From positions 5,834-29,833 of the forward strand of contig QHZP01000117.1 in assembly GCA_003224715.1 (NCBI GenBank): a DNA stretch of 24,000 nucleotides, in the 5' to 3' direction. Made by a program: the position numbers and the translations under genes. Shown here one piece after another: positions 7,552 to 24,000 of the stretch. Position 1 is the first letter of the stretch, and each line of letters starts with the position of its first letter. The stretch is from Acidobacteriota bacterium (GTDB taxonomy: Bacteria > Acidobacteriota > Terriglobia > Versatilivoradales > Versatilivoraceae). Under the pieces are notes generated by a model. It did not search any database, was not told the origin of the DNA, and was given only the letters and a program-made list of their open reading frames with translations.

Positions 7552-7607
7552 ATTGCAAAAGGTAGAGTGTCCCCAATAGCTTCGTGTCCACCACTGGGAC
7601 TCGACTC

Positions 7608-8573
7608 ATGCTGAGGCGTGGTCTAGCGTGCTCGGGTTGGGTCCTGATTCTGTTAACCCTATTTCCCGTAGCTTCCATGTCGGCAGAGAAACGGACTATA
7701 AAAATCGGCGACCCGGCCCCAGATTTTACCTTACAAAGTCTGGATGGCCGTGAAATTCGTCTCAGCGATTATCGTGGCAAGCGAGTCCTGCTCTTTATCT
7801 GGGCCTCCTGGTGAACCTGCAGGGAACAGCTGCCAGGTTGGCAGGCGTTCTATCAGAAGCACCAGAGCGAGAGCTTTGAACTGATTGCGGTGGCGATGGA
7901 TGCGCAGGGGCCCGAAGCGGTGCGCCGCTTTGTGGCAAAGGCCAATGCCACCTTTGTCAATGTCGTGGACTCTGCCGATGGACTTTGGGACCTCTATGGT
8001 TTTGAGGTTATTCCCAATGGTTACTACGTTGACGAACGCGGCTATGTCCGTTATCTCAAAGTGGGTGGCTTTGAAATTCGGGAGCCCACCACAGCAAAAA
8101 TTCTCGACGATTTGTTAGCCGAAAAATGGCCCAAGAAGCCCGTTAAGGTTCCCGACAAGCCCAAGCTATCCGCCAAAAAAGAGATTGTTCAGTTAACCAA
8201 ACAACTCAAGGTGAGTTCTCGTGGGGTTGAAAAACGTTTACACCTGGCTGAACTTTTAGTGGAAACAGGACAATACAGAAAGGCCGGCAAGGAGTATGAC
8301 GTCATTCTGGCTCATCACCCGAAGCAAGTAAAAGCGCTTTTTGGTCGAGGAGTGGTTTACCGTCGTGAGAAGAAAACTGACAAAGCTCTGGCATGCTGGC
8401 GTAAGGCTTATACTCTGGATCCCGGCAATTGGGTCATACGCAAGCAAATCTGGGCCCTCGAACACCCTGAACAGTTTTATCCCGCCATCAACTACAATTG
8501 GCAGCAGGAGCAGATTCGGAGAGAAGAGATGCAGGCGGACGCGGGAGAAAAGGCCAAGGCTCAAAGGAAGTAG
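7608..8573 (+). CDS. Secreted TlpA/redoxin-like thioredoxin-fold protein fused to TPR repeats; candidate selenoprotein with in-frame TGA (Sec) at 7812-7814
   Basis: ORFs 7584..7814 and 7890..8573 share one frame and are separated only by TGA 7812-7814. The TGA sits in ...LLFIWASW-U-TC-REQLP at the redox Cys position. A SECIS-like hairpin follows. There is a signal peptide at the N-terminus and TPR repeats at the C-terminus. Start is ATG 7608 or GTG 7584. Confidence 0.6.
7824..7850 (+). promoter_or_regulatory. SECIS-like stem-loop 9 nt downstream of the in-frame UGA
   Basis: Lower stem GAAC (7824-7827) / GUUC (7847-7850), then a 2x2 internal loop, then upper stem CUGCCA (7830-7835) / UGGCAG (7839-7844) with apical loop GGU. 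An alternative 8-bp hairpin at 7815-7838 overlaps it. Confidence 0.45.
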
Positions 8574-10869: not shown

Positions 10870-11439
10870 CTACGGCTTTCTAACAGCCTCCAGGATCTCT
10901 TTGTCCTTTTCTAAAAGCGCAGGATTATCACTACAGCAACCACTTCCGGAAGTGGTTTGAATTACTGGGAGGCTCAGATGATGCTGCGTCGTCTTAAGCT
11001 GAACTCTCTTACCCTTGGCAAAAATCTCGTGCCGGCCCTGGGTTTTATGCCATTCGGCCAGGGTTGCAGTCTGGTGCATGTTTTCAATAATCTGCCGCCA
11101 CCCCACTCCGGTGTTGTAAGCACAGAAGGAAATCTCCCCCTCCTGGGTGCCATAGGGTATCACACACATCTCAGTGCGGCGGAAGTCGTAAGTCCACAAA
11201 TCCTGAAACCACATACCCTCCACGCATAGGACGCGCCAATCATCGTTGTCCGTGCGCGTTTTCATGCGATCGTTACGATCGCTGTCTGAACGCTCGGAAC
11301 TAGGTTTGAACAGATTCACGATCTGTGAAATCGGAAAGCCCTTGGGAGCTTTATCAGCCTTGAAGTTGCGCATGATGGAAAGAGCCAACTGAGCCGCTGT
11401 GAGAGTCCTTCCGCGAGCGGTATCGGTAATTACGGCCAC
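10870..11439 (-). CDS. C-terminal fragment of a Tes/GDGT-MAS-like (COG1964-type) radical SAM protein, separated from the N-terminal part by a frame change
   Basis: CVEGMWFQDLWTYDFRRTEMCVIPYGTQEGEISFCAYNTGVGWR matches the conserved C-terminal block that is part of the same polypeptide in MJ0619-type enzymes. It is in the -1 frame relative to 11430..12803 and overlaps it by 10 nt. Confidence 0.65.
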   Translation of the reverse strand: MAVITDTARGRTLTAAQLALSIMRNFKADKAPKGFPISQIVNLFKPSSERSDSDRNDRMKTRTDNDDWRVLCVEGMWFQDLWTYDFRRTEMCVIPYGTQEGEISFCAYNTGVGWRQIIENMHQTATLAEWHKTQGRHEIFAKGKRVQLKTTQHHLSLPVIQTTSGSGCCSDNPALLEKDKEILEAVRKP

Positions 11440-12803
11440 ATCGCGAGCGGAGCGAACTCGTGGGTTCGACGATTGACCACCAGCAACGTAAAAATGCCGC
11501 AGTTAGGATGACAGTTGCAGGCGCTCCAGCCCCAGGGCGCATCGTCTCCTTGCAGCAGGTCCATCACACTGGTGAAGGCACTGTAGGAAGAAAGAGGGAA
11601 CCAATCCCGCAGGGGTTCCCAGTCGGCATTTAACTGGGTCTTCAAGTCTTCCACCATTTGCGAGAGCGTATAACGATGGGCATAACGGGTCTGATCATCA
11701 ATATCTTCATCTCGGCCGGTGAAGGAGACAGGTTGAAAAGCAATGGTCTGGATTTTGTCGATATTGCGGATTGCGAACTCCACAATGGAACCAATACCAT
11801 CGTTGTTCACTCCGTTTACAATGGTCGTCACTAAAGTGGTTTTCATTCCCGCTTTGGCCATGTTCTCGACAGCCTGAAGCTTGACATCAAACAAATTTCC
11901 TACGCCGCGATGCCGGTTCTTCTCCTCCGAGGTGCCGTCAAACTGCAGGTAGGCTCCGTGCAGACCCGCCTCGTGAGCCTGGCGCGTAAACTCTTCGCTC
12001 TGCGCAAAACGAATCCCATTAGTAGCCGCCATCACTCGATAGAAGCCAATCTTCTTAGCATACGCCACGGCCTCGATGAAATGAGGAGAGATGGTCGGTT
12101 CGCCTCCGGAAAAGAGAACGATCACCTGGCGGCGCGGCTTGAAGGAAACGGCGCGGTCAAGGATGGCTTTGATGTCTTCAAAGCTTGGCTGATGCACGTA
12201 GCCGACCTGGTTGGCATCCATAAAACAGGGATTGCACATCATGTTGCATCGGTTGGTGAGGTCCACCGTGAGGACAGCGCCCCGGCCAAATTTGATTGTC
12301 GACGTGCCGTGCCGATGAACGTCCTTGTCTTCGGCACATTTGAAATCCCTGCCTAAGAACAGACTTTCAATACGCCGGGTGAAATGCGAGTTGGTGGATA
12401 ATACATCTTCGAAAGGACCGTGTTTGTCGCAAACCTTTCGCATGAGAACCCGGCCATTCTCCTCCACGATGTGCGCCTTGATTTCGCCAGGCTGGCCTGA
12501 GATCAGTGCCGAAATATCCATCTCCCCCTTGATAATCGCATTGCGAACTTCAGGAACACAGCGAGGACAAAGCGAGTCGGTTACTCTGGGGAATCCCAGT
12601 GTGGGAGCCGAGCGCTCATAGCTCTTGAGCATTTTTCCTGGGGCCCATTTGGGGCTGGGCAGTTCCCCTTCGGGAAGGCGCCGGTTAACCGCCTGGAGCA
12701 TCTTCCAAGCCAGATTGGCTATTCCAGAAATACAAGACGATCCGGACCAGTTCCGCAAGAAACTCTTCTCGCCTTCATTCCGGAACATATGATCAGTGTA
12801 CAT
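11430..12803 (-). CDS. N-terminal and radical SAM core fragment of a Tes/GDGT-MAS-like (COG1964-type) radical SAM protein
   Basis: RBS ggagg lies 6 nt before ATG 12803. There is a zinc-ribbon/rubredoxin-like CPRC...KVCDKHGPF, a CxxxCxxC motif CNMMCNPC (12225-12248), GGEPT, and a later Cys cluster ACNCHPNCG. It ends prematurely at 11430 relative to family members. Confidence 0.7.
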   Translation of the reverse strand: MYTDHMFRNEGEKSFLRNWSGSSCISGIANLAWKMLQAVNRRLPEGELPSPKWAPGKMLKSYERSAPTLGFPRVTDSLCPRCVPEVRNAIIKGEMDISALISGQPGEIKAHIVEENGRVLMRKVCDKHGPFEDVLSTNSHFTRRIESLFLGRDFKCAEDKDVHRHGTSTIKFGRGAVLTVDLTNRCNMMCNPCFMDANQVGYVHQPSFEDIKAILDRAVSFKPRRQVIVLFSGGEPTISPHFIEAVAYAKKIGFYRVMAATNGIRFAQSEEFTRQAHEAGLHGAYLQFDGTSEEKNRHRGVGNLFDVKLQAVENMAKAGMKTTLVTTIVNGVNNDGIGSIVEFAIRNIDKIQTIAFQPVSFTGRDEDIDDQTRYAHRYTLSQMVEDLKTQLNADWEPLRDWFPLSSYSAFTSVMDLLQGDDAPWGWSACNCHPNCGIFTLLVVNRRTHEFAPLAMWP

Positions 12804-17776: not shown

Positions 17777-17987
17777 CCTTGTCTTCTCCACAACGGTCAG
17801 AAGGGGGAAGCCTTGTCCAGTTTCTGACCTATTCATCCTCGTGCTGTTACTCTCGTTCGGTTGGCAACTTTGAATCAACTAAGAGCAGAAGCATGAGCAC
17901 GAGTACGATTCTTCATCGATTCAATTGAGAAGCCCATATATTGCAGGTTTGAGGGACAGCCTGGTACCCAAATTAGGCACCACTGAT

Positions 17988-18113
17988 CTCCCCTCACCCC
18001 CGTCCCTCCTTGGTCCCCGCTGCCCTGATGAGGGCTAGGGGGGAGTATTTCCTTTTTTGGATAACCGCCCTCTCCCACGGGGAGAGGGTGCCCGAAGGGC
18101 GGGTGAGGGGGCC
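17988..18113. repeat. Family B GC-rich palindromic repeat, copy B4
   Basis: ctcccctcaccccc...ccctctcccacggggagagggtgcccgaagggcgggtgaggggg shares the ctctccc-N4-gggagaggg and gggtgaggg modules with B1-B3. Confidence 0.6.
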
Positions 18114-18186
18114 GTTGCTTGCAGAGCGTAGATTTGGTGACACCCACATCTTCCCCAGCTGCAGGACTTGGATGGCAAGCCCCTCT

Positions 18187-20730
18187 TCAGCAGCACGACG
18201 AACTCCCAGGAGCGCAGCATGAGTACTCAATATGACTCCCGTCGGCCCCAGGCTCCAAAATAACAAATGACCCTTGATAGGGGGGATTCATTAACTTTGA
18301 AGCGGTGTCGGTGCAGACTTCAATGGGCTCATTGCGCGGGAAAAGATGACCTTCTTCATCCATGACGGCCTTTTGCGGCCCCAGATAAATGGCCCGCTGG
18401 CCCTTGAACACGCACCCTGTCGTTTTTTCGAATTTGTAGCCACGCACCGTCACTGAGTAAAATTTATAGCCTTCCACTTCCTTCCAATAGGTTTTCTTCA
18501 GTACCTGCAATCCATAAAAACCGGCTCGTTCGAGGTAGACAAGAAATTCCTCCTCGGTAAGAGCGCCAGCAATACACGCGCCCCATAACATGCGGTTCAC
18601 CCGTAAGTGGCTGGGGACAGTCTCCTCACTCACGATGTCACTGACGACAATGCGACCATGGTCTTTCAACACTCGCCACATTTCGCGAAAAACGGCTTTC
18701 TTGTCGGGAGACAAATTGATCACACAGTTAGAAGTGATGAGGTCTGCCGTTCTGCTTTCGACGGGAATTTGTTCAAGGTAACCGCAGCGGAACTCCACCA
18801 CGTCATAGCCAAGGTTATCAGCCACGGGTTGTTTGTTACGATTTGCAAGCGTGAGCATCTGATCGGTCATATCGACACCGATCACCTTTCCCGCCGGGCC
18901 CACTTTCTTGGCTGCAATAAAACAATCGATTCCGCCTCCTGAGCCAAGATCGATGCTGGTCTCACCAGGCGCGAGGCTCGCCATTGTCACGGGAGAACCA
19001 CAGCCATAAAATCGATCAATGACCTCTTGGGGGATATGGCTGATGTCTGACTGGTCGTAGTGGGTCGGACAACACAGACTCGCTTGCGGCTCCTCAGCAG
19101 CCTTGCCATAAAATTCCTGGACAACCCGGCGCGATTTTTCAATGTCGAATGCCAGCACGCAATTAGAATGAAGGGTAGCCACGGCCGTATCGCTGCGAAC
19201 GTCGATCTGATCTGTGTCTGTGCCGCAGGCCACAGCGCCATCCCCCATGGCATGAAAGATAATTGGCGCACTGAAGCCGGAACGTCGATTGAACGCCCGC
19301 TTCTTCTCACTGGCCAGGTCCAGCATGACGTCGTGAGCGATGGCCGTATAAACGTCGTAGTAAGGATCCGGGGCCAGCAGGTTGCCGCCTTGGGATTTAT
19401 CCAGACTGAAAAAGTAGCTGTGTTCGATATCACCGCCGCCTGTGATGTATTTAAAGGGATCATCTACGGGGAGCTGCTTTGACACCACTGACGCCCGTCG
19501 AAATTCTTGGGCCAGTCCTGAGTTTTGCCAGATTTCGCGAAGATTACCGTTGCTGATCATACCAGCAGCTAGCGGTTTGAAATTGGCCGTGGCGGCGGAA
19601 GGATAAACCATGCCGTCCGAATACACGCACATCGAATCCCAGAATTGATTTCCGAGGTCGTATTTCACAAAGGGCCGGCCGTTCACCCTTAACTTCATGG
19701 ATTCGATGTTATCAATGGTCACGCCCAGCGATTGAGCGCGCTGCTTGGTGGCACGCACGATACGGGTCAAGTCCTCTGTGGAGGGGAATGACTTGGGCAT
19801 TGTTTCCAGTACCCGACCACGCCGATGCATCCACATCAAATGCTGAGACTGTGCGCCCCAGTCTTTGACCAATTGGGTGATCTCGGGAATCTCCTCCAGA
19901 TTTTCTGTCATGACCACCGTGGTGAGGGAGACCGGAAATCCGAGCCGGGTGGCGCTACGAGTTCCTTGGCAAATCTGCTCAAATGTGCCGGCACCGCGCA
20001 GACGATCATTGGTTTCGGGTCTGGCGCCGTCCAGCGACACCTGAAGGCGCAGCCGGTCGCGAGAGGCGGCCTCGAGTTTCTTGAGACGCGTGTCGTGAAG
20101 CAAGGTGGCGTTGGTCAAAATGATTAGTTCCGCCTCTTTCTTCTCGGTGATGTAGTGGATCAGTTGGAAGATATCCGGGCGTGCGAACGGCTCGCCGCCC
20201 GTGAAATAGAGGCGTTCTACACCGCAATCAACTGCCTGGTCGACGATATTGAGGAGCTTGACGGTAGACAGACCGCGGTCGGCGGCGGGTGATGAGCTCA
20301 CCAGGCAGTGCGTGCAAGTCAGATTGCAGGAATTGTTGGTGTGAATCCACAATTCTCGAAGTTTCTCAAGTTTCAGGTGGGCCGAGCGTCCGCCATAGGG
20401 GAATCGCTCGATGGGTGTCGTCGAAACCACTTGAGCGCGCAGGGCGTCCCGCAGAAAGGAATGCACATGCAACCAGGCAACAGCGCTTGTCACCTGAAAG
20501 GATTCCGTGTAGCGACGCACCAATTCTCCCAAGGTGACCTTCTGATCCAGCCATCTTAAGATCTGCCCTCCCCGGCTGTCAGTGGCGATCCAATTCGGAC
20601 CTTCAGGATCGATGGCAATATGAACATCGTTCTCTTCGAGATGCCGAACGTCAGGAAGATAAAATAGTTGATCTTCTTTAAGCTCCAACATGATGTATCT
20701 TTTCTCCTTTGGTTCCCAATGAGCATTCAT
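18187..20730 (-). CDS. Fusion protein: PqqD/RRE-like domain + radical SAM core (degenerate SPASM region) + ArsM-type As(III) S-adenosylmethionine methyltransferase
   Basis: CNLTCTHC (aa 135-142, nt 20305-20328) and FTGGEPF mark the radical SAM core. The PqqD-like stretch is aa ~40-105. The ArsM domain is aa ~535-847 with [32 protein letters not shown] and C-terminal SCC..SSCC. An alternative start is ATG 20691, with aaggag upstream. Confidence 0.85.
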
Positions 20731-21721: not shown

Positions 21722-22903
21722 TTATTTTTTAAAAATCGCTTTCAGTTTGTGCACAATCTCTTCGGGTTCGTTGTCGCCGAGACACTGTGGGAAAAAGACA
21801 ATAGTTCCCTGTGAAGCCAGGTTTTCGTAGGTACAGATAATCGGCTCACCTTCCTGAAGCGCATTGATCAATGCGTGGGCATCCAGGCCCGCTCTGTTGG
21901 GATCCACTTGCACATGCGCCGAAGGGACTGGCTGTCCACTTGGCAAGGGAAAAATGCGATGAGCGCATAGCCCGGAAATTTTCTCGACGCCGGCAATGAG
22001 GGTATCGATTCGTTCGTGCCAGGCTTTCAATTCTGCCTCAAAGTCGCGGGTAGCATAAAGTTCTAAAGCGGCGATGAGGCCTGCTATCTCTTCCTTTCCG
22101 ACCTTGAGACCGCGTCCAACCCCGTGATGAGGCGGTCCCGAGAGTGTCCCGTCCACAATCAAGTGCCGCCATGGCCAGGTTTCCGGAAAAACATCCATAT
22201 CTTGATGTTGTAAGGCCACCGAGAGAATCAGATCACGCCTGCCGCATAGGATCCCGCTGGCTTGTGGGCCTCCAATATGTTTTCCTCCGCTAAAGGCTAC
22301 CAGGTCGGCGCCCTGGGCGATGAATTTTCGCAGATTCTCGGCTGGGGGCAGTTCAGCCGCTGCATCGATGATGACGGGAACGTGGTTTGAATGGGCAATC
22401 TGGACGATTTGCTCCAAAGAGAGGCTCCCTTCAACCGACCCGGCTAGAAAGAAGATGGCAGCTGTCTTGTCATTGATAGCTCGTTCCACTTCATAAGGGA
22501 AAGTTGCGTAATTGAAACCTACCTCTACCACTTTGGCCCCGGCGGCTCGTAAAGCGTGATCGTAGTCATTCCGATGGACGCGTTGAATGATGACTTCATT
22601 TTTCATGCCGCGAGCGTCAGGCAAACGGTTCATCTTCAGGGGGTCCAGGCCCGCGATACAAGCTGCCATGCCTAGCGTCAGTCCAGCGGCGGCGCCGGAG
22701 GTCACATATCCGGCTTCGGCTCCTGTGAGCCTGGCGATAATTTGGCCTGCGGCCTGTTGTAAGTCTTCCATTCTGACGAATGACTCGGCTGCTTCTCGCA
22801 TGGCTTGGATCACTTCCGGAGCCATGAGCGAGCCCCCTGCCTTAGTGCTGTAGCTGCGAGCATTGATCACTCGACGCAAACCTAATTTCTGATAAAAATT
22901 CAT
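21722..22903 (-). CDS. SelA-fold (COG1921, DgaE-like) PLP-dependent enzyme
   Basis: VINARSYSTKAGGSLMAPEV, TGAEAGYVTSGAAAGL and FSGGKHIGGPQASGILCG (compare the SelA PLP-lysine motif FSGDKLLGGPQAG). It lacks the ~80-aa N-terminal tRNA-binding domain of genuine SelA. ATG 22903 has aaggag 9 nt upstream. Confidence 0.8.
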   Translation of the reverse strand: MNFYQKLGLRRVINARSYSTKAGGSLMAPEVIQAMREAAESFVRMEDLQQAAGQIIARLTGAEAGYVTSGAAAGLTLGMAACIAGLDPLKMNRLPDARGMKNEVIIQRVHRNDYDHALRAAGAKVVEVGFNYATFPYEVERAINDKTAAIFFLAGSVEGSLSLEQIVQIAHSNHVPVIIDAAAELPPAENLRKFIAQGADLVAFSGGKHIGGPQASGILCGRRDLILSVALQHQDMDVFPETWPWRHLIVDGTLSGPPHHGVGRGLKVGKEEIAGLIAALELYATRDFEAELKAWHERIDTLIAGVEKISGLCAHRIFPLPSGQPVPSAHVQVDPNRAGLDAHALINALQEGEPIICTYENLASQGTIVFFPQCLGDNEPEEIVHKLKAIFKK

Positions 22904-22948
22904 CGGTCTCACTCCTTGCCCTTCACTCACGATTGCTTTCCCACAGGC

Positions 22949-24000
22949 TCAGCGGTCGCTCGGGCTACCGGCCCGTACACTCAACAGGTATTGCTTCTCC
23001 CGCTCAGACTCGTTTTTCAGTTTTTCGTACCACTCGAGGTGGGTTGTGGCCTCCGCCGCCCGGCCCAGCGATTTGTAAACCCGCGCGAGCAGGAAATGCA
23101 CCGACTGATTGGCCGGATCCAGCTTCATCGCCTTCTCGCAATACCCGAGCGCTTCCTGCGGCCGATTCTTCAACATCTGAATTTTCGCAAGTCCTAGAAG
23201 CGCGTCAGCGTAATTCGGGTCAAATTGAAGGGCCGTGCTGTAAAGCGTCCAGGCCTTATCGAGCTTCTGGTCCAGGAGCTCCAGCTCCCCGAGCTGAAAG
23301 TAGCTCTCCGCATGGGCCGGGTGAAGTCGTAGCTCCTCTTCGTACTCGTGGCTCGCCTCCTTTCGCTCGCCAAGAGCGCGCAGCATGTTCCCAATCTGGT
23401 AATGCAGACCTGTCGCCATAGGATTGTCCTTCAGCGCCAGCCGAAACTGCTCCGCCGCCAACGCAAAATGGTCCCCCTCCGACAAGAGGTGGCCAAGCAT
23501 TTCATGCGTCAGGTAAGCGTTTGGATATTTCTGCGTCAACCTCCTCATCATTTCCCGGGCCCGGGTCATGTGGAGCCAGAAGCTCTGATAGACCACTTGT
23601 GGATTGTCAGGCTCCATCTTGAGAAGCGCCAGGTAAACCGCCTCTGCTTCATTTAGTGAACCAGACTTGATATAGAACTTTCCCAAACGAAGCCCAACCA
23701 GCCGTTTCAATTCACCGTCCACCGCCGGATCCTGCGAGCGAAAAGATTTCTCGAGCAAGGGACGGCCGCGATCGGTGTGTCCGAGCGCAAATTCGCTGAG
23801 ACCCAGGAACGCTTCGGCAGCAGCCAGATTCGGCTTCATTTCCAGCGCGCGTTCCAAAGCCGTTGCGGCCGATCTGTAGTCGCCCTTTTGGTAGTGAGCC
23901 ACCCCCAAATGCAAAAAGAGCGGGGCGGACTCGCCGTGGCTGCGCAGCAACTTCTGGTAGATCTCAATAGCCCGATCATAATTGCTCTCGGCTAGAGATT
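22949..24000 (-). CDS. Tetratricopeptide repeat protein (5' end outside window)
   Basis: Serial TPR-like 34-mers are present (YQKGDYRSAATALERALEMKPN, AEAVYLALLKMEPDN, ALGYCEKAMKLDPAN). The frame remains open upstream of the listed start to the window edge (..SLAESNYDRAIEIYQKLL..). Confidence 0.8.
   Translation of the reverse strand, partial: SLAESNYDRAIEIYQKLLRSHGESAPLFLHLGVAHYQKGDYRSAATALERALEMKPNLAAAEAFLGLSEFALGHTDRGRPLLEKSFRSQDPAVDGELKRLVGLRLGKFYIKSGSLNEAEAVYLALLKMEPDNPQVVYQSFWLHMTRAREMMRRLTQKYPNAYLTHEMLGHLLSEGDHFALAAEQFRLALKDNPMATGLHYQIGNMLRALGERKEASHEYEEELRLHPAHAESYFQLGELELLDQKLDKAWTLYSTALQFDPNYADALLGLAKIQMLKNRPQEALGYCEKAMKLDPANQSVHFLLARVYKSLGRAAEATTHLEWYEKLKNESEREKQYLLSVRAGSPSDR

What the first reader, a model, noticed from the sequence alone, without database searches (positions are those of the whole stretch)
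7584..8573. In-frame TGA at the redox-cysteine position joins two ORFs into a secreted TlpA/redoxin-TPR selenoprotein candidate
ORFs 7584..7814 and 7890..8573 are in the same frame (offset 306 nt), and the only stop between them is TGA 7812-7814. The 75 nt after the TGA stay open and read T-C-R-E-Q-L-P-G-W-Q-A-F-Y-Q-K-H-Q-S-E-S-F-E-L-I-A-V-A. That is the normal continuation of a TlpA/ResA/redoxin fold (family pattern F-W-A-x-W-C-x-x-C-R-x-E-x-P). The TGA falls in LLFIWASW-[TGA]-T-C-REQLP, at the N-terminal redox Cys, giving Sec-x-Cys. This is one residue shorter than the canonical CxxC, which is itself unusual. Nine nt downstream, a hairpin (7824-7850) has a 4-bp lower stem, a 2x2 internal loop, a 6-bp upper stem CUGCCA/UGGCAG and a GGU apical loop. 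It sits at the distance expected of a bacterial SECIS and carries a G/U-containing apical loop. The N-terminus is a signal peptide (MLRRGLACSGWVLILLTLFPVASMSA) and the C-terminus carries TPR repeats. This would therefore be an exported selenoprotein fusion, which is uncommon in bacteria and would be missed by standard gene callers.
Basis: partly seen in the sequence, partly recalled or inferred. Interest (0 to 1): 0.8.

Follow-up and report, generated by a model that had tools for sequence, protein, structure and literature searches.

The report
Selenocysteine redoxin-TPR gene, split by callers
The two adjacent reading frames are one gene for a thioredoxin-fold enzyme whose active-site residue is selenocysteine, encoded by an in-frame UGA with a conserved hairpin after it; it is real, but it belongs to a class of predicted bacterial selenoproteins catalogued since 2008.

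Summary
TGA 7812-7814 is the only stop between two same-frame ORFs, and one AhpC-TSA/Redoxin domain spans it. The same in-frame TGA sits at the same column in 68 of 80 species-level genomes from at least six phyla and in seven metagenome contigs, always as W-U-x-C-R. Eleven relatives in the window's own clade carry Cys, Glu, Ser or Asp there.

Both halves are under strong purifying selection (dN/dS 0.04 upstream, 0.10-0.12 downstream). An independent assembly at 99.7% identity has the same TGA. TGA is a normal stop for other genes in the window.

A hairpin 15 nt after the TGA (CUGCC-NGKNU-GGCAG) is kept through synonymous-codon restriction and CUG/CAG to UUG/CAA covariation. It is lost in the non-Sec relatives.

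The "one residue short" U-x-C motif is the family norm. The nearest curated model is NCBIfam NF041054 "ResA-like WAxxUGC motif-containing protein", and the matching literature family is the GOS "Prx-like (UGC-containing)" selenoprotein. The window protein scores 145 bits against a 300-bit cut-off, so it belongs to an uncurated sister subfamily.

The signal peptide is plausible but unproven. The genome's Sec machinery could not be checked.

Verdict: a genuine selenoprotein gene and a new member of a known kind, of moderate interest.

The parts
7608..7676 (+). Candidate N-terminal signal-peptide-like extension, MLRRGLACSGWVLILLTLFPVAS, if translation starts at ATG 7608. Alternative starts are GTG 7584 and ATG 7677.
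   Evidence: It has two Arg, then an 11-residue hydrophobic core (Kyte-Doolittle up to 2.76), then ASMSA. The frame is open and a similar hydrophobic stretch is present in L001/L008 and L002. The gene caller on the near-identical contig L088 used the start equivalent to 7608. dN/dS here is 0.44, which is inconclusive. No Shine-Dalgarno sequence is evident before either ATG.
7677..7811 (+). First part of the redoxin domain (MSAEKRTIKIGDPAPDF...LLFIWASW), ending just before the Sec codon.
   Evidence: Pfam AhpC-TSA/Redoxin match. It aligns with the N-termini of full-length homologues that start at this Met. dN/dS is 0.04 against L008.
7812..7814 (+). UGA read as selenocysteine. It is the attacking residue at the N-cap of helix alpha-1.
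   Evidence: It is TGA in 77 of 88 loci at this column and Cys/Glu/Ser/Asp in the other 11. The independent assembly L088 has the same TGA. In the model of the Cys orthologue P0001, Cys46 lies at the end of the loop that precedes helix 47-61.
7818..7820 (+). Cys codon two residues after Sec, the presumed resolving Cys of the U-x-C motif.
   Evidence: It is TGC or TGT in all 77 Sec loci and in the 11 non-Sec loci. Two full-length homologues (P0008, P0045) have Ser here.
7830..7844 (+). Core SECIS-like stem-loop CUGCCA-GGU-UGGCAG, encoded by the L-P-G-W-Q codons.
   Evidence: RNAalifold on 69 distinct Sec loci predicts exactly this 5-bp stem. Pair 19:33 is CG 59, UA 8, UG 2, with no mispairs. 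Codon restriction is documented.
7824..7850 (+). Extended hairpin in this gene: GAAC/GUUC lower stem plus a 2x2 internal loop.
   Evidence: It is present in the window. Across the family the lower stem is only 73% paired.
7704..8096 (+). TlpA/ResA-like thioredoxin-fold (AhpC-TSA/Redoxin) domain.
   Evidence: Pfam matches. PDB sequence matches are 3kcm, ResA, TlpA and DsbE. Foldseek of the P0001 model gives target-normalised TM 0.84-0.89 to 3kcm, 3gl3 and ResA.
8235..8459 (+). TPR-like helical repeat region.
   Evidence: Pfam TPR_2, TPR_1 and TPR_16. The model shows helices 184-262 with pLDDT above 90.
8427..8483 (+). C-terminal signature NWVIRKQIWALEHPEQFYP, the most conserved stretch of the family outside the active site.
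   Evidence: It contains invariant or near-invariant columns N251, W252, K256, Q257, W259, E262, P264, F267, Y268 and P269. It was one of the two peptide patterns that recovered 171 relatives.
8571..8573 (+). True stop codon, TAG.

Best explanation
Positions 7608 (or 7677) to 8573 are a single gene for a roughly 300-aa selenoprotein. It has a TlpA/ResA-like thioredoxin-fold domain with active site W-A-S-W-Sec-Thr-Cys, followed by TPR repeats and a conserved C-terminal NW(I/V)IRKQIW...HPExFYP module.

Shown here: the UGA is a conserved, selected feature of the family. It occupies the position of the N-terminal nucleophilic Cys of the CxxC motif. A stem-loop beginning 15 nt downstream is conserved only when the UGA is present.

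Inferred for decoding: SelB with Sec-tRNA(Sec) binds this hairpin (5-6 bp CUGCC(A)/(U)GGCAG, with a small loop that begins with G and usually contains GU) while the ribosome sits on the UGA, and inserts selenocysteine.

Inferred for chemistry: the selenolate at the helix N-cap attacks an oxidised substrate (a disulfide, sulfenate or peroxide). Cys+2 resolves the adduct into a strained selenenylsulfide. A thiol reductant then recycles the enzyme.

Inferred for specificity: the TPR/C-terminal module supplies partner or substrate recognition. In this Acidobacteriota lineage the protein may be exported.
For: One Pfam domain spans the stop.

The TGA is at the identical column in 68 of 80 genome loci plus L001-L007. 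These come from Acidobacteriota, Chloroflexota, Poribacteria, Armatimonadia, Latescibacterota and Rubrobacteraceae. Cys occupies that column in homologues P0001, P0002, P0010, P0014, P0032 and P0042.

dN/dS against L008 is 0.04 upstream and 0.10-0.12 downstream of the TGA, with dS of 0.5-0.7. The independent contig L088, at 99.7% identity, carries the same TGA. TGA ends 10 of 21 other ORFs in the window, so the genetic code is standard.

For the hairpin, RNAalifold recovers the stem. The Leu codon in the stem is CTG or TTG in 76 of 77 loci, against 43% elsewhere in the same genes. Leu/Gln codon pairs are CTG-CAG 64, TTG-CAA 10, TTG-CAG 2, and never CTG-CAA. Pro is CCA or CCG in 72% of loci, against 37% elsewhere. 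The loop codon is GGN or GTN in 76 of 77. In the 11 non-Sec relatives the Pro, the codon bias and the pairing are all lost. In the Cys orthologue L089 the loop G has become A.

For the fold, the model of the Cys orthologue has pLDDT 90 and pTM 0.86. The Sec-equivalent Cys46 sits just before helix 47-61, and the nearest structures are ResA, DsbE and 3kcm.

Relatives already classed as selenoproteins are NF041054, the best NCBIfam hit, and the GOS 'Prx-like UGC-containing' reads with WASWUGCR..VPVWQ. Sec use is documented in Acidobacteriota and Dehalococcoidia (PMC12013277; PMC13326102).
Against: No selA, selB, selD or tRNA-Sec was seen in the window or in 60 flanking loci, and the rest of the genome could not be searched. 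The one SelA Pfam hit, at 21722-22930, is a DgaE-type lyase and not SelA.

No Rfam family matches the hairpin.

Most stem positions are also fixed by conserved amino acids (Trp, Pro). Formal covariation therefore rests on a single base pair, and shuffle controls are only modestly exceeded (covariation score reached by 13 of 500 shuffles).

The chemistry, the substrate and the role of the TPR module are inferred only. No gene partner is conserved across clades.
Confidence: 0.9

Rival explanations
1. The gene is a pseudogene or truncated in this genome. The TGA is a nonsense mutation, for example a 3-nt deletion turning TGC-CCA into TGA, in a former CxxC TlpA-like gene, and only the N-terminal fragment is made.
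For: The motif is one residue shorter than CxxC. Gene callers split the locus into two ORFs. Sec machinery was not seen.
Against: The same TGA and the same one-residue-short motif occur in 77 loci across at least six phyla, and Cys homologues are C-x-C as well. dN/dS downstream of the stop is 0.10-0.12 at dS of about 0.5-0.7. The hairpin is maintained by selection on synonymous sites.
Confidence: 0.03
2. The TGA is an assembly or sequencing error for TGC or TGT, and the gene is an ordinary Cys-containing redoxin.
For: Close Cys-containing relatives exist. P0001/L089 reads TGG TGC ACT TGT.
Against: The independent JGI assembly L088 differs at 27 positions over 9.4 kb yet has the same TGA. L001, L002-L004 and L008 from other samples also carry TGA. 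The SECIS codon pattern is present in the window (CTG CCA GGT TGG CAG) and is degraded in Cys forms.
Confidence: 0.01
3. The UGA is recoded by something other than SelB/SECIS-dependent Sec insertion. Possibilities are near-cognate read-through as Trp or Cys, or a genome-wide TGA reassignment.
For: One relative, P0086, has Trp at the column. Sec machinery is unverified.
Against: TGA terminates 10 of 21 other ORFs in the window. Cys is the recurrent alternative at the column. The hairpin has the position and G-containing small apical loop that PMC1088965 describes for bacterial SECIS, and it co-occurs strictly with the TGA. Related families are curated as selenoproteins.
Confidence: 0.04
4. There are two separate functional genes: a 68-76 aa N-terminal peptide and a TPR protein that starts at GTG 7890.
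For: This is how public annotation treats it. P0004 is the 225-aa product, and L088 is annotated with genes of 68 and 225 aa.
Against: The split cuts a thioredoxin fold at its active site. The 75 nt between the stop and GTG 7890 encode the conserved CREQLPGWQAFYQKH...ELIAVA helix-strand of that fold. Full-length uninterrupted homologues exist.
Confidence: 0.02

Closest known systems
[quoted passage not shown]
   Same: Sec is at the same position in a W-A-x-W-U-x-C-R context, followed by (L/V)P-x-W-Q. The fold is AhpC-TSA/TlpA-like. A helical C-terminal extension ends in a D-P-x-x-W motif. The window protein is 35% identical to a GOS read over the Trx domain (E 2e-35). NF041054 is the best NCBIfam hit for every clade tested.
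   Different: The window protein scores 144.9 bits and other clades 122-167 bits, against a 300-bit cut-off, whereas partial GOS reads reach 230. The middle residue is variable (T, M, V, A, G, S, R, I) rather than Gly. The C-terminal part has recognisable TPR repeats and the NWIIRKQIWAxEHPExFYP signature, in place of the ...DPxSWNxxRQ tail of the GOS reads.
TlpA / ResA / CcmG (DsbE) extracytoplasmic CxxC thiol-disulfide oxidoreductases
   Same: These are the best structural and sequence matches among solved proteins: 3kcm, 3gl3, ResA 1st9/1su9 and TlpA 1jfu, with target TM 0.84-0.89. The active site sits at the N-terminus of helix alpha-1.
   Different: The motif is U-x-C instead of C-x-x-C, with a one-residue deletion. 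Sec replaces Cys. A TPR domain is fused. Many members are cytoplasmic with no signal peptide. No link to cytochrome c or Sco maturation genes is seen in the neighbourhoods.
Escherichia coli fdhF-type bacterial SECIS (SelB-binding hairpin)
   Same: It is a hairpin immediately 3' of the UGA, inside the coding sequence, with a small apical loop containing G. This matches the general description in PMC1088965. From memory, the fdhF loop GGUC with essential G and U resembles the family's commonest loop, GGUCU.
   Different: The sequence is unrelated apart from the loop. The stem is built from the codons of a conserved L-P-x-W-Q peptide. No curated RNA model matches it. SelB binding was not tested.
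Engineered and natural C-x-C redox motifs, such as the CGC thioredoxin variant used as a PDI mimic (recalled from memory, not checked here)
   Same: Both have two redox residues separated by one residue at the thioredoxin-fold active site, which gives a strained and more oxidising closed form.
   Different: In this family the first residue is selenocysteine and the motif is natural and family-wide. Redox potential and activity are unknown.

Membership tests
Bacterial SelB/SECIS-dependent selenoprotein gene | An in-frame UGA aligned with Cys in homologues, with coding conservation on both sides | tested here: met
   Cys is at the column in P0001, P0002, P0010, P0014, P0032 and P0042. TGA is at the column in 77 of 88 loci. 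dN/dS is 0.04 upstream and 0.10-0.12 downstream.
Bacterial SelB/SECIS-dependent selenoprotein gene | A stem-loop immediately 3' of the UGA with a small apical loop containing G | tested here: met
   The stem is at 7830-7844 and the loop is GGU. It is conserved in 69 distinct loci. Synonymous-codon restriction and CUG/CAG to UUG/CAA covariation appear only in Sec members. The feature is as described in PMC1088965.
Bacterial SelB/SECIS-dependent selenoprotein gene | The genome encodes selA, selB, selC (tRNA-Sec) and selD | not testable with these tools
   None was found in the 24-kb window. The SelA-like ORF is DgaE-type. Sec use in Acidobacteriota in general is documented (PMC12013277).
Bacterial SelB/SECIS-dependent selenoprotein gene | Selenium is actually incorporated at the UGA | not testable with these tools
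   This needs 75Se labelling or mass spectrometry.
NCBIfam NF041054 WAxxUGC_long (equivalent to GOS Prx-like UGC-containing) | Score at or above the curated cut-off of 300 bits | tested here: not met
   The score is 144.9 bits, covering profile positions 84-324 of 354. Other clades of the same subfamily score 122-167 bits. Partial GOS reads score 230 bits.
NCBIfam NF041054 WAxxUGC_long (equivalent to GOS Prx-like UGC-containing) | The W-A-x-x-U-G-C motif | tested here: inconclusive
   The window has W-A-S-W-U-T-C, so Sec and the +2 Cys are in place but Thr replaces Gly. Within the subfamily the middle residue is G in Poribacteria and Armatimonadia and otherwise A, V, M, T, S, R or I.
TlpA/ResA/DsbE CxxC thiol-disulfide oxidoreductases | A C-x-x-C active-site motif | tested here: not met
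   The motif is U-x-C, or C-x-C in Cys homologues. There is a one-residue gap relative to 3kcm's CPPC.
TlpA/ResA/DsbE CxxC thiol-disulfide oxidoreductases | A thioredoxin fold with the TlpA-type insertions | tested here: met
   Foldseek of the Cys orthologue's model gives target TM 0.84-0.89 to 3kcm, 3gl3 and ResA.
TlpA/ResA/DsbE CxxC thiol-disulfide oxidoreductases | Extracytoplasmic location through a signal peptide or membrane anchor | tested here: inconclusive
   The window has a signal-like MLRRGLACSGWVLILLTLFPVAS if ATG 7608 is used. Signal peptides are clear in Acidobacteriota clade 2 and absent in Chloroflexota members and in the non-Sec relatives.
Peroxiredoxin (AhpC/TSA, PxxxTxxC) | Thr or Ser three residues before the peroxidatic Cys, within the PxxxT/SxxC motif | tested here: not met
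   The sequence before Sec is F-I-W-A-S-W, with Ala at position -3. The best structural matches are ResA and DsbE rather than Prx. NCBIfam peroxiredoxin models score 18-33 bits.

The most novel reading that the evidence does not exclude
The window gene represents a distinct subfamily that has not been curated and whose function is unknown. It is a U-x-C redoxin fused to TPR repeats, with the NWIIRKQIWAxEHPExFYP tail. Selenocysteine appears to be the default state rather than the exception: 68 of 80 species-level genomes across at least six phyla. Its SECIS is built from the codons of a conserved L-P-x-W-Q peptide. Public protein databases represent it almost entirely as split ORFs. Sister lineages that replaced Sec with Glu or Asp would then point to a chemistry or binding role beyond ordinary thiol-disulfide exchange.
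Probability: 0.3. Interest if true: 0.5.

Novelty: new member of a known kind. Interest (0 to 1): 0.4.

Why it matters
The locus is mis-annotated as two genes in the metagenome records examined here (the 225-aa product P0004, the 68- and 225-aa genes called on L088, and the many truncated database hits), so the enzyme is missing from functional inventories of soil Acidobacteriota and of marine or sponge Chloroflexota and Poribacteria.

Recognising it adds a Sec-dependent redox enzyme to an Acidobacteriota lineage, which implies a selenium requirement there. It also gives a clean natural example of a SECIS hairpin and a protein motif constraining each other.

The U-x-C spacing on a thioredoxin fold has not been characterised biochemically as far as the papers read here show. 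Expressing the Sec and Cys orthologue pair (the window/L002 type and the P0001 type) would allow a direct test of what Sec and the short spacing contribute.

Tried and rejected
- **Rfam.** Neither gathering thresholds on the whole window nor a permissive E-value search on 7760-7920 gave any SECIS or other meaningful hit.
- **tRNA-Sec.** ARAGORN found none in the window or in 60 related loci.
- **Window ORFs against Pfam and NCBIfam.** No selenium-utilisation genes turned up. The only SelA Pfam hit, at 21722-22930, scores 249 bits to DgaE/selA_rel and 66 bits to true SelA (cut-off 268), so it was rejected.
- **Other in-frame-TGA ORF pairs in the window.** The scan gave only coincidental same-frame neighbours. 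One example is the TPR ORF and the DgaE-like ORF, whose N-terminus is complete.
- **Structure prediction of the window protein with Cys for Sec.** The 76%-identical Cys orthologue P0001, which has the same C-T-C motif, was modelled instead.
- **Outer pairing in the single-sequence fold.** The pairing of CCUGGUG with CACCAG, which includes the UGA, is not conserved in the family alignment.
- **Tat signal.** The RR in MLRRG is not conserved in L001/L008, so this was rejected.
- **DNA for P0002.** It could not be fetched.
Full report
**1. The observation**

TGA at 7812-7814 is the only stop between 7584 and 8573 in that frame. The translation reads ...RGKRVLLFIWASW*TCREQLPGWQAFYQKHQSESFELIAVAMDAQG....

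With Cys substituted for the stop, Pfam AhpC-TSA (E 1.5e-21) and Redoxin (E 5.9e-20) each match as one uninterrupted stretch that spans the stop. TPR models match the C-terminal third. The stop therefore cuts a single domain.

The hairpin is at the stated coordinates. It has GAAC/GUUC, a 2x2 internal loop, CUGCCA/UGGCAG and a GGU loop at 7824-7850. The region folds better than all 200 dinucleotide shuffles, with z = -3.4.

**2. Is the stop real and selected?**

A protein search returned many 298-301-aa uninterrupted homologues at 56-76% identity. It also returned a large set of hits truncated exactly at the stop column, starting MCREQLP, LPGWQ or MPGWQ.

- DNA fetched for three of the truncated hits showed an in-frame stop at the same column, with the upstream half of the domain intact.
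- A scan of one genome per species returned 80 loci. Of these, 68 have TGA at this column, always in the context W-[AG]-S-W-TGA-x-Cys-Arg. They come from Acidobacteriota, Chloroflexota (Dehalococcoidia, Anaerolineae, Caldilineaceae), Poribacteria, Armatimonadia, Latescibacterota and a Rubrobacteraceae MAG.
- The eleven non-TGA loci (L009-L019; one further locus did not match the motif search) all belong to the window's own sub-clade. They carry Cys (4), Glu (5), Ser (1) or Asp (1).
- Against the syntenic relative L008 (Acidobacteria gp11 AA57, about 85% nucleotide identity), dN/dS is 0.04 upstream and 0.10-0.12 downstream of the TGA, at dS of 0.5-0.7.
- An independent JGI assembly, L088, differs from the window at 27 positions in 9.4 kb and has the same TGA.
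- TGA ends 10 of 21 other ORFs in the window, so the genetic code is standard.

Pseudogene, assembly error, two separate genes and code reassignment are therefore all rejected.

**3. The hairpin as a SECIS**

In 69 distinct Sec-type sequences aligned from the TGA, RNAalifold predicts one structure. It is a 5-bp stem CUGCC/GGCAG at columns 19-23 and 29-33, closing a loop N-G-K-N-U. A sixth pair forms in 49 of 69 sequences. The window's lower stem is only 73% paired across the family.

The stem is made of the codons for Leu-Pro and Trp-Gln, so amino-acid conservation explains part of it. The synonymous sites give the cleaner signal:

| Feature | In 77 TGA loci, at the stem or loop | Elsewhere in the same genes |
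|---|---|---|
| Leu codon | CTG 64, TTG 12, TTA 1 (CTG+TTG 99%) | CTG+TTG 43% |
| Pro codon | CCA or CCG 72% | CCA or CCG 37% |
| Leu/Gln codon pair | CTG-CAG 64, TTG-CAA 10, TTG-CAG 2, TTA-CAA 1, CTG-CAA 0 | not applicable |
| Loop codon | GGN or GTN in 76 of 77 | not applicable |

- The UUG/CAA double change occurs in Acidobacteriota, in several separate groups of Chloroflexota loci and in Poribacteria. I infer several independent events from this spread, but no tree was built.
- In the 11 non-Sec relatives the Pro is replaced by T, S, F, A or V, Leu codons are scattered and the pairing is lost.
- In the close Cys orthologue L089 (TGC), the first loop G has become A.
- The shuffle control is only moderately exceeded (13 of 500), because most stem columns never vary. 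The contrast between Sec and non-Sec members is the stronger argument.

The position and the small G-containing apical loop match the general description of bacterial SECIS in PMC1088965. The loop begins 21 nt after the UGA. No Rfam model matches.

**4. What the protein is**

The best solved relative, 3kcm_A, aligns FWATWCPpCREEIPS against IWASWCT.CREQLPG. Sec takes the place of the first Cys of CxxC, and one residue is missing between the two redox residues.

An AlphaFold model of the Cys orthologue P0001 (76% identical, same C-T-C motif) has pLDDT 90 and pTM 0.86. The Sec-equivalent Cys46 sits at the end of the loop preceding helix 47-61, which is the classical nucleophile position. About three TPR-like hairpins and a long C-terminal helix follow. 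Foldseek places the N-terminal domain with ResA, DsbE, TlpA and 3kcm, at target TM 0.84-0.89.

The family's second hallmark is the C-terminal NW(I/V)IRKQIWAxEHPExFYP...W motif.

**5. Mechanism**

Shown: a conserved UGA, a hairpin coupled to the UGA, and an active-site location.

Inferred:
- SelB with Sec-tRNA(Sec) binds the hairpin and inserts Sec.
- The selenolate attacks an oxidised substrate.
- Cys+2 resolves the adduct to a strained selenenylsulfide.
- A thiol reductant regenerates the enzyme.
- The TPR/C-terminal module provides partner recognition.

Neighbourhoods differ between clades, so no partner can be named. The window has rpsA, SOD and a methyltransferase nearby. The second Acidobacteriota clade has leuCD and a rhomboid protease. 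Dehalococcoidia have tRNA-Asp.

**6. Export**

- From ATG 7608 the protein begins MLRRGLACSGWVLILLTLFPVAS|MSAEKR, which has a signal-like profile. Related hydrophobic in-frame stretches precede the domain in L001/L008 and L002.
- A second Acidobacteriota clade has clear signal peptides, for example MRKLALFILGATLMAAMHSVGWA. Armatimonadia and Poribacteria copies have lipoprotein or transmembrane leaders plus an extra domain.
- Chloroflexota copies, and the Glu, Asp and Cys relatives in the window's clade, have stop codons a few codons upstream of the start and no leader.
- dN/dS of the extension is 0.44 over 23 codons, which is uninformative.

Export of the window protein is plausible but not shown.

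**7. Comparison with what is known**

- NCBIfam's best hit is NF041054, "ResA-like WAxxUGC motif-containing protein". It scores 144.9 bits against a 300-bit cut-off, and every clade tested scores 122-167 bits.
- The GOS study lists "Prx-like (UGC-containing)", pfam00578, motif UGC, with 46 Sec sequences (PMC2398784). The Sargasso study lists one Prx-like UXC sequence (PMC1088965).
- GOS supplement reads such as ...LLLTWASWUGCRLDVPVWQ... score 230 bits to NF041054 even though they are partial. They are 35% identical to the window protein over the Trx domain.

The window gene is therefore a divergent sister of a catalogued, computationally predicted selenoprotein family. It shares the Sec position, the U-x-C spacing and the (L/V)PxWQ segment. 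It falls below the curated model's threshold and has its own TPR and C-terminal signature.

**8. Limits**

The genome's Sec machinery could not be examined. No sel genes or tRNA-Sec lie in the window or in the flanks of 60 related loci. The apparent SelA hit at 21722-22930 is a DgaE-type PLP lyase. Sec use is documented in Acidobacteriota (PMC12013277) and is heavy in Dehalococcoidia (PMC13326102).

**9. Verdict**

The finding is a genuine selenoprotein gene that standard callers split. It is a new member of a known kind rather than a new kind, and the "unusual" U-x-C is the family norm. Interest is moderate at 0.4.

Noticed in passing
window 11430-12803 (-): A radical-SAM ORF of 457 aa. Its best NCBIfam hit is tetraether lipid synthase Tes (NF045702, 246 bits, below the 450-bit cut-off). 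It also scores 180 bits to the radical SAM (seleno)protein TrsS. This is a Tes-like enzyme on an Acidobacteriota contig.
   Followed up: no
window 18187-20730 (-): An 847-aa fusion of a radical SAM domain and a class I SAM methyltransferase domain. It is followed in the same frame, across its TGA stop, by a 90-aa ORF at 17875-18147, which is probably coincidence.
   Followed up: no
window 21722-22930 (-): This ORF hits Pfam SelA but is a DgaE/selA_rel-type PLP ammonia-lyase: 249 bits to TIGR01437 and only 66 bits to true SelA, whose cut-off is 268. It is not evidence of Sec machinery. It is in frame with the upstream TPR ORF (22949-23950) across TGA 22949-22951, but its N-terminus is complete.
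   Followed up: partly
L009-L019; P0003, P0005, P0007, P0008, P0013, P0025, P0086: Within the window's own clade, sister lineages have Glu, Asp, Ser or Trp instead of Sec or Cys at the active-site column, and most keep the +2 Cys. In the ones whose DNA was examined (L010, L011, L013, L014, L016, L018, L090), the Glu and Asp forms have stop codons just upstream of the start, which leaves no room for a leader peptide.
   Followed up: partly
L035, L036, L039, L041, L043-L047, L049-L051, L053, L058, L074, L078, L079 (about 50-200 nt after the gene's stop): In Dehalococcoidia genomes the selenoprotein gene is followed immediately by a tRNA-Asp(GTC) gene. This is a conserved arrangement.
   Followed up: no
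L062, L063, L068, L070, L072, L073, L075-L077, L080-L087 (upstream part of the ORF): Poribacteria and Armatimonadia copies carry a signal, lipoprotein or transmembrane leader. They also have an extra N-terminal domain of about 100-130 aa before the redoxin domain, with conserved ...W(F/L)VPLE(P)FA..LG(L)KVEYP...C.PL.. residues, and the motif is WGSWUGC or WASWUGC.
   Followed up: no
L089 (P0001) against L002-L004 (P0021): Closely related sequences from similar metagenomes differ in TGC against TGA at the active site. The Cys form has also lost the loop G of the hairpin (GGC to AGT). This suggests a recent Sec/Cys switch.
   Followed up: partly
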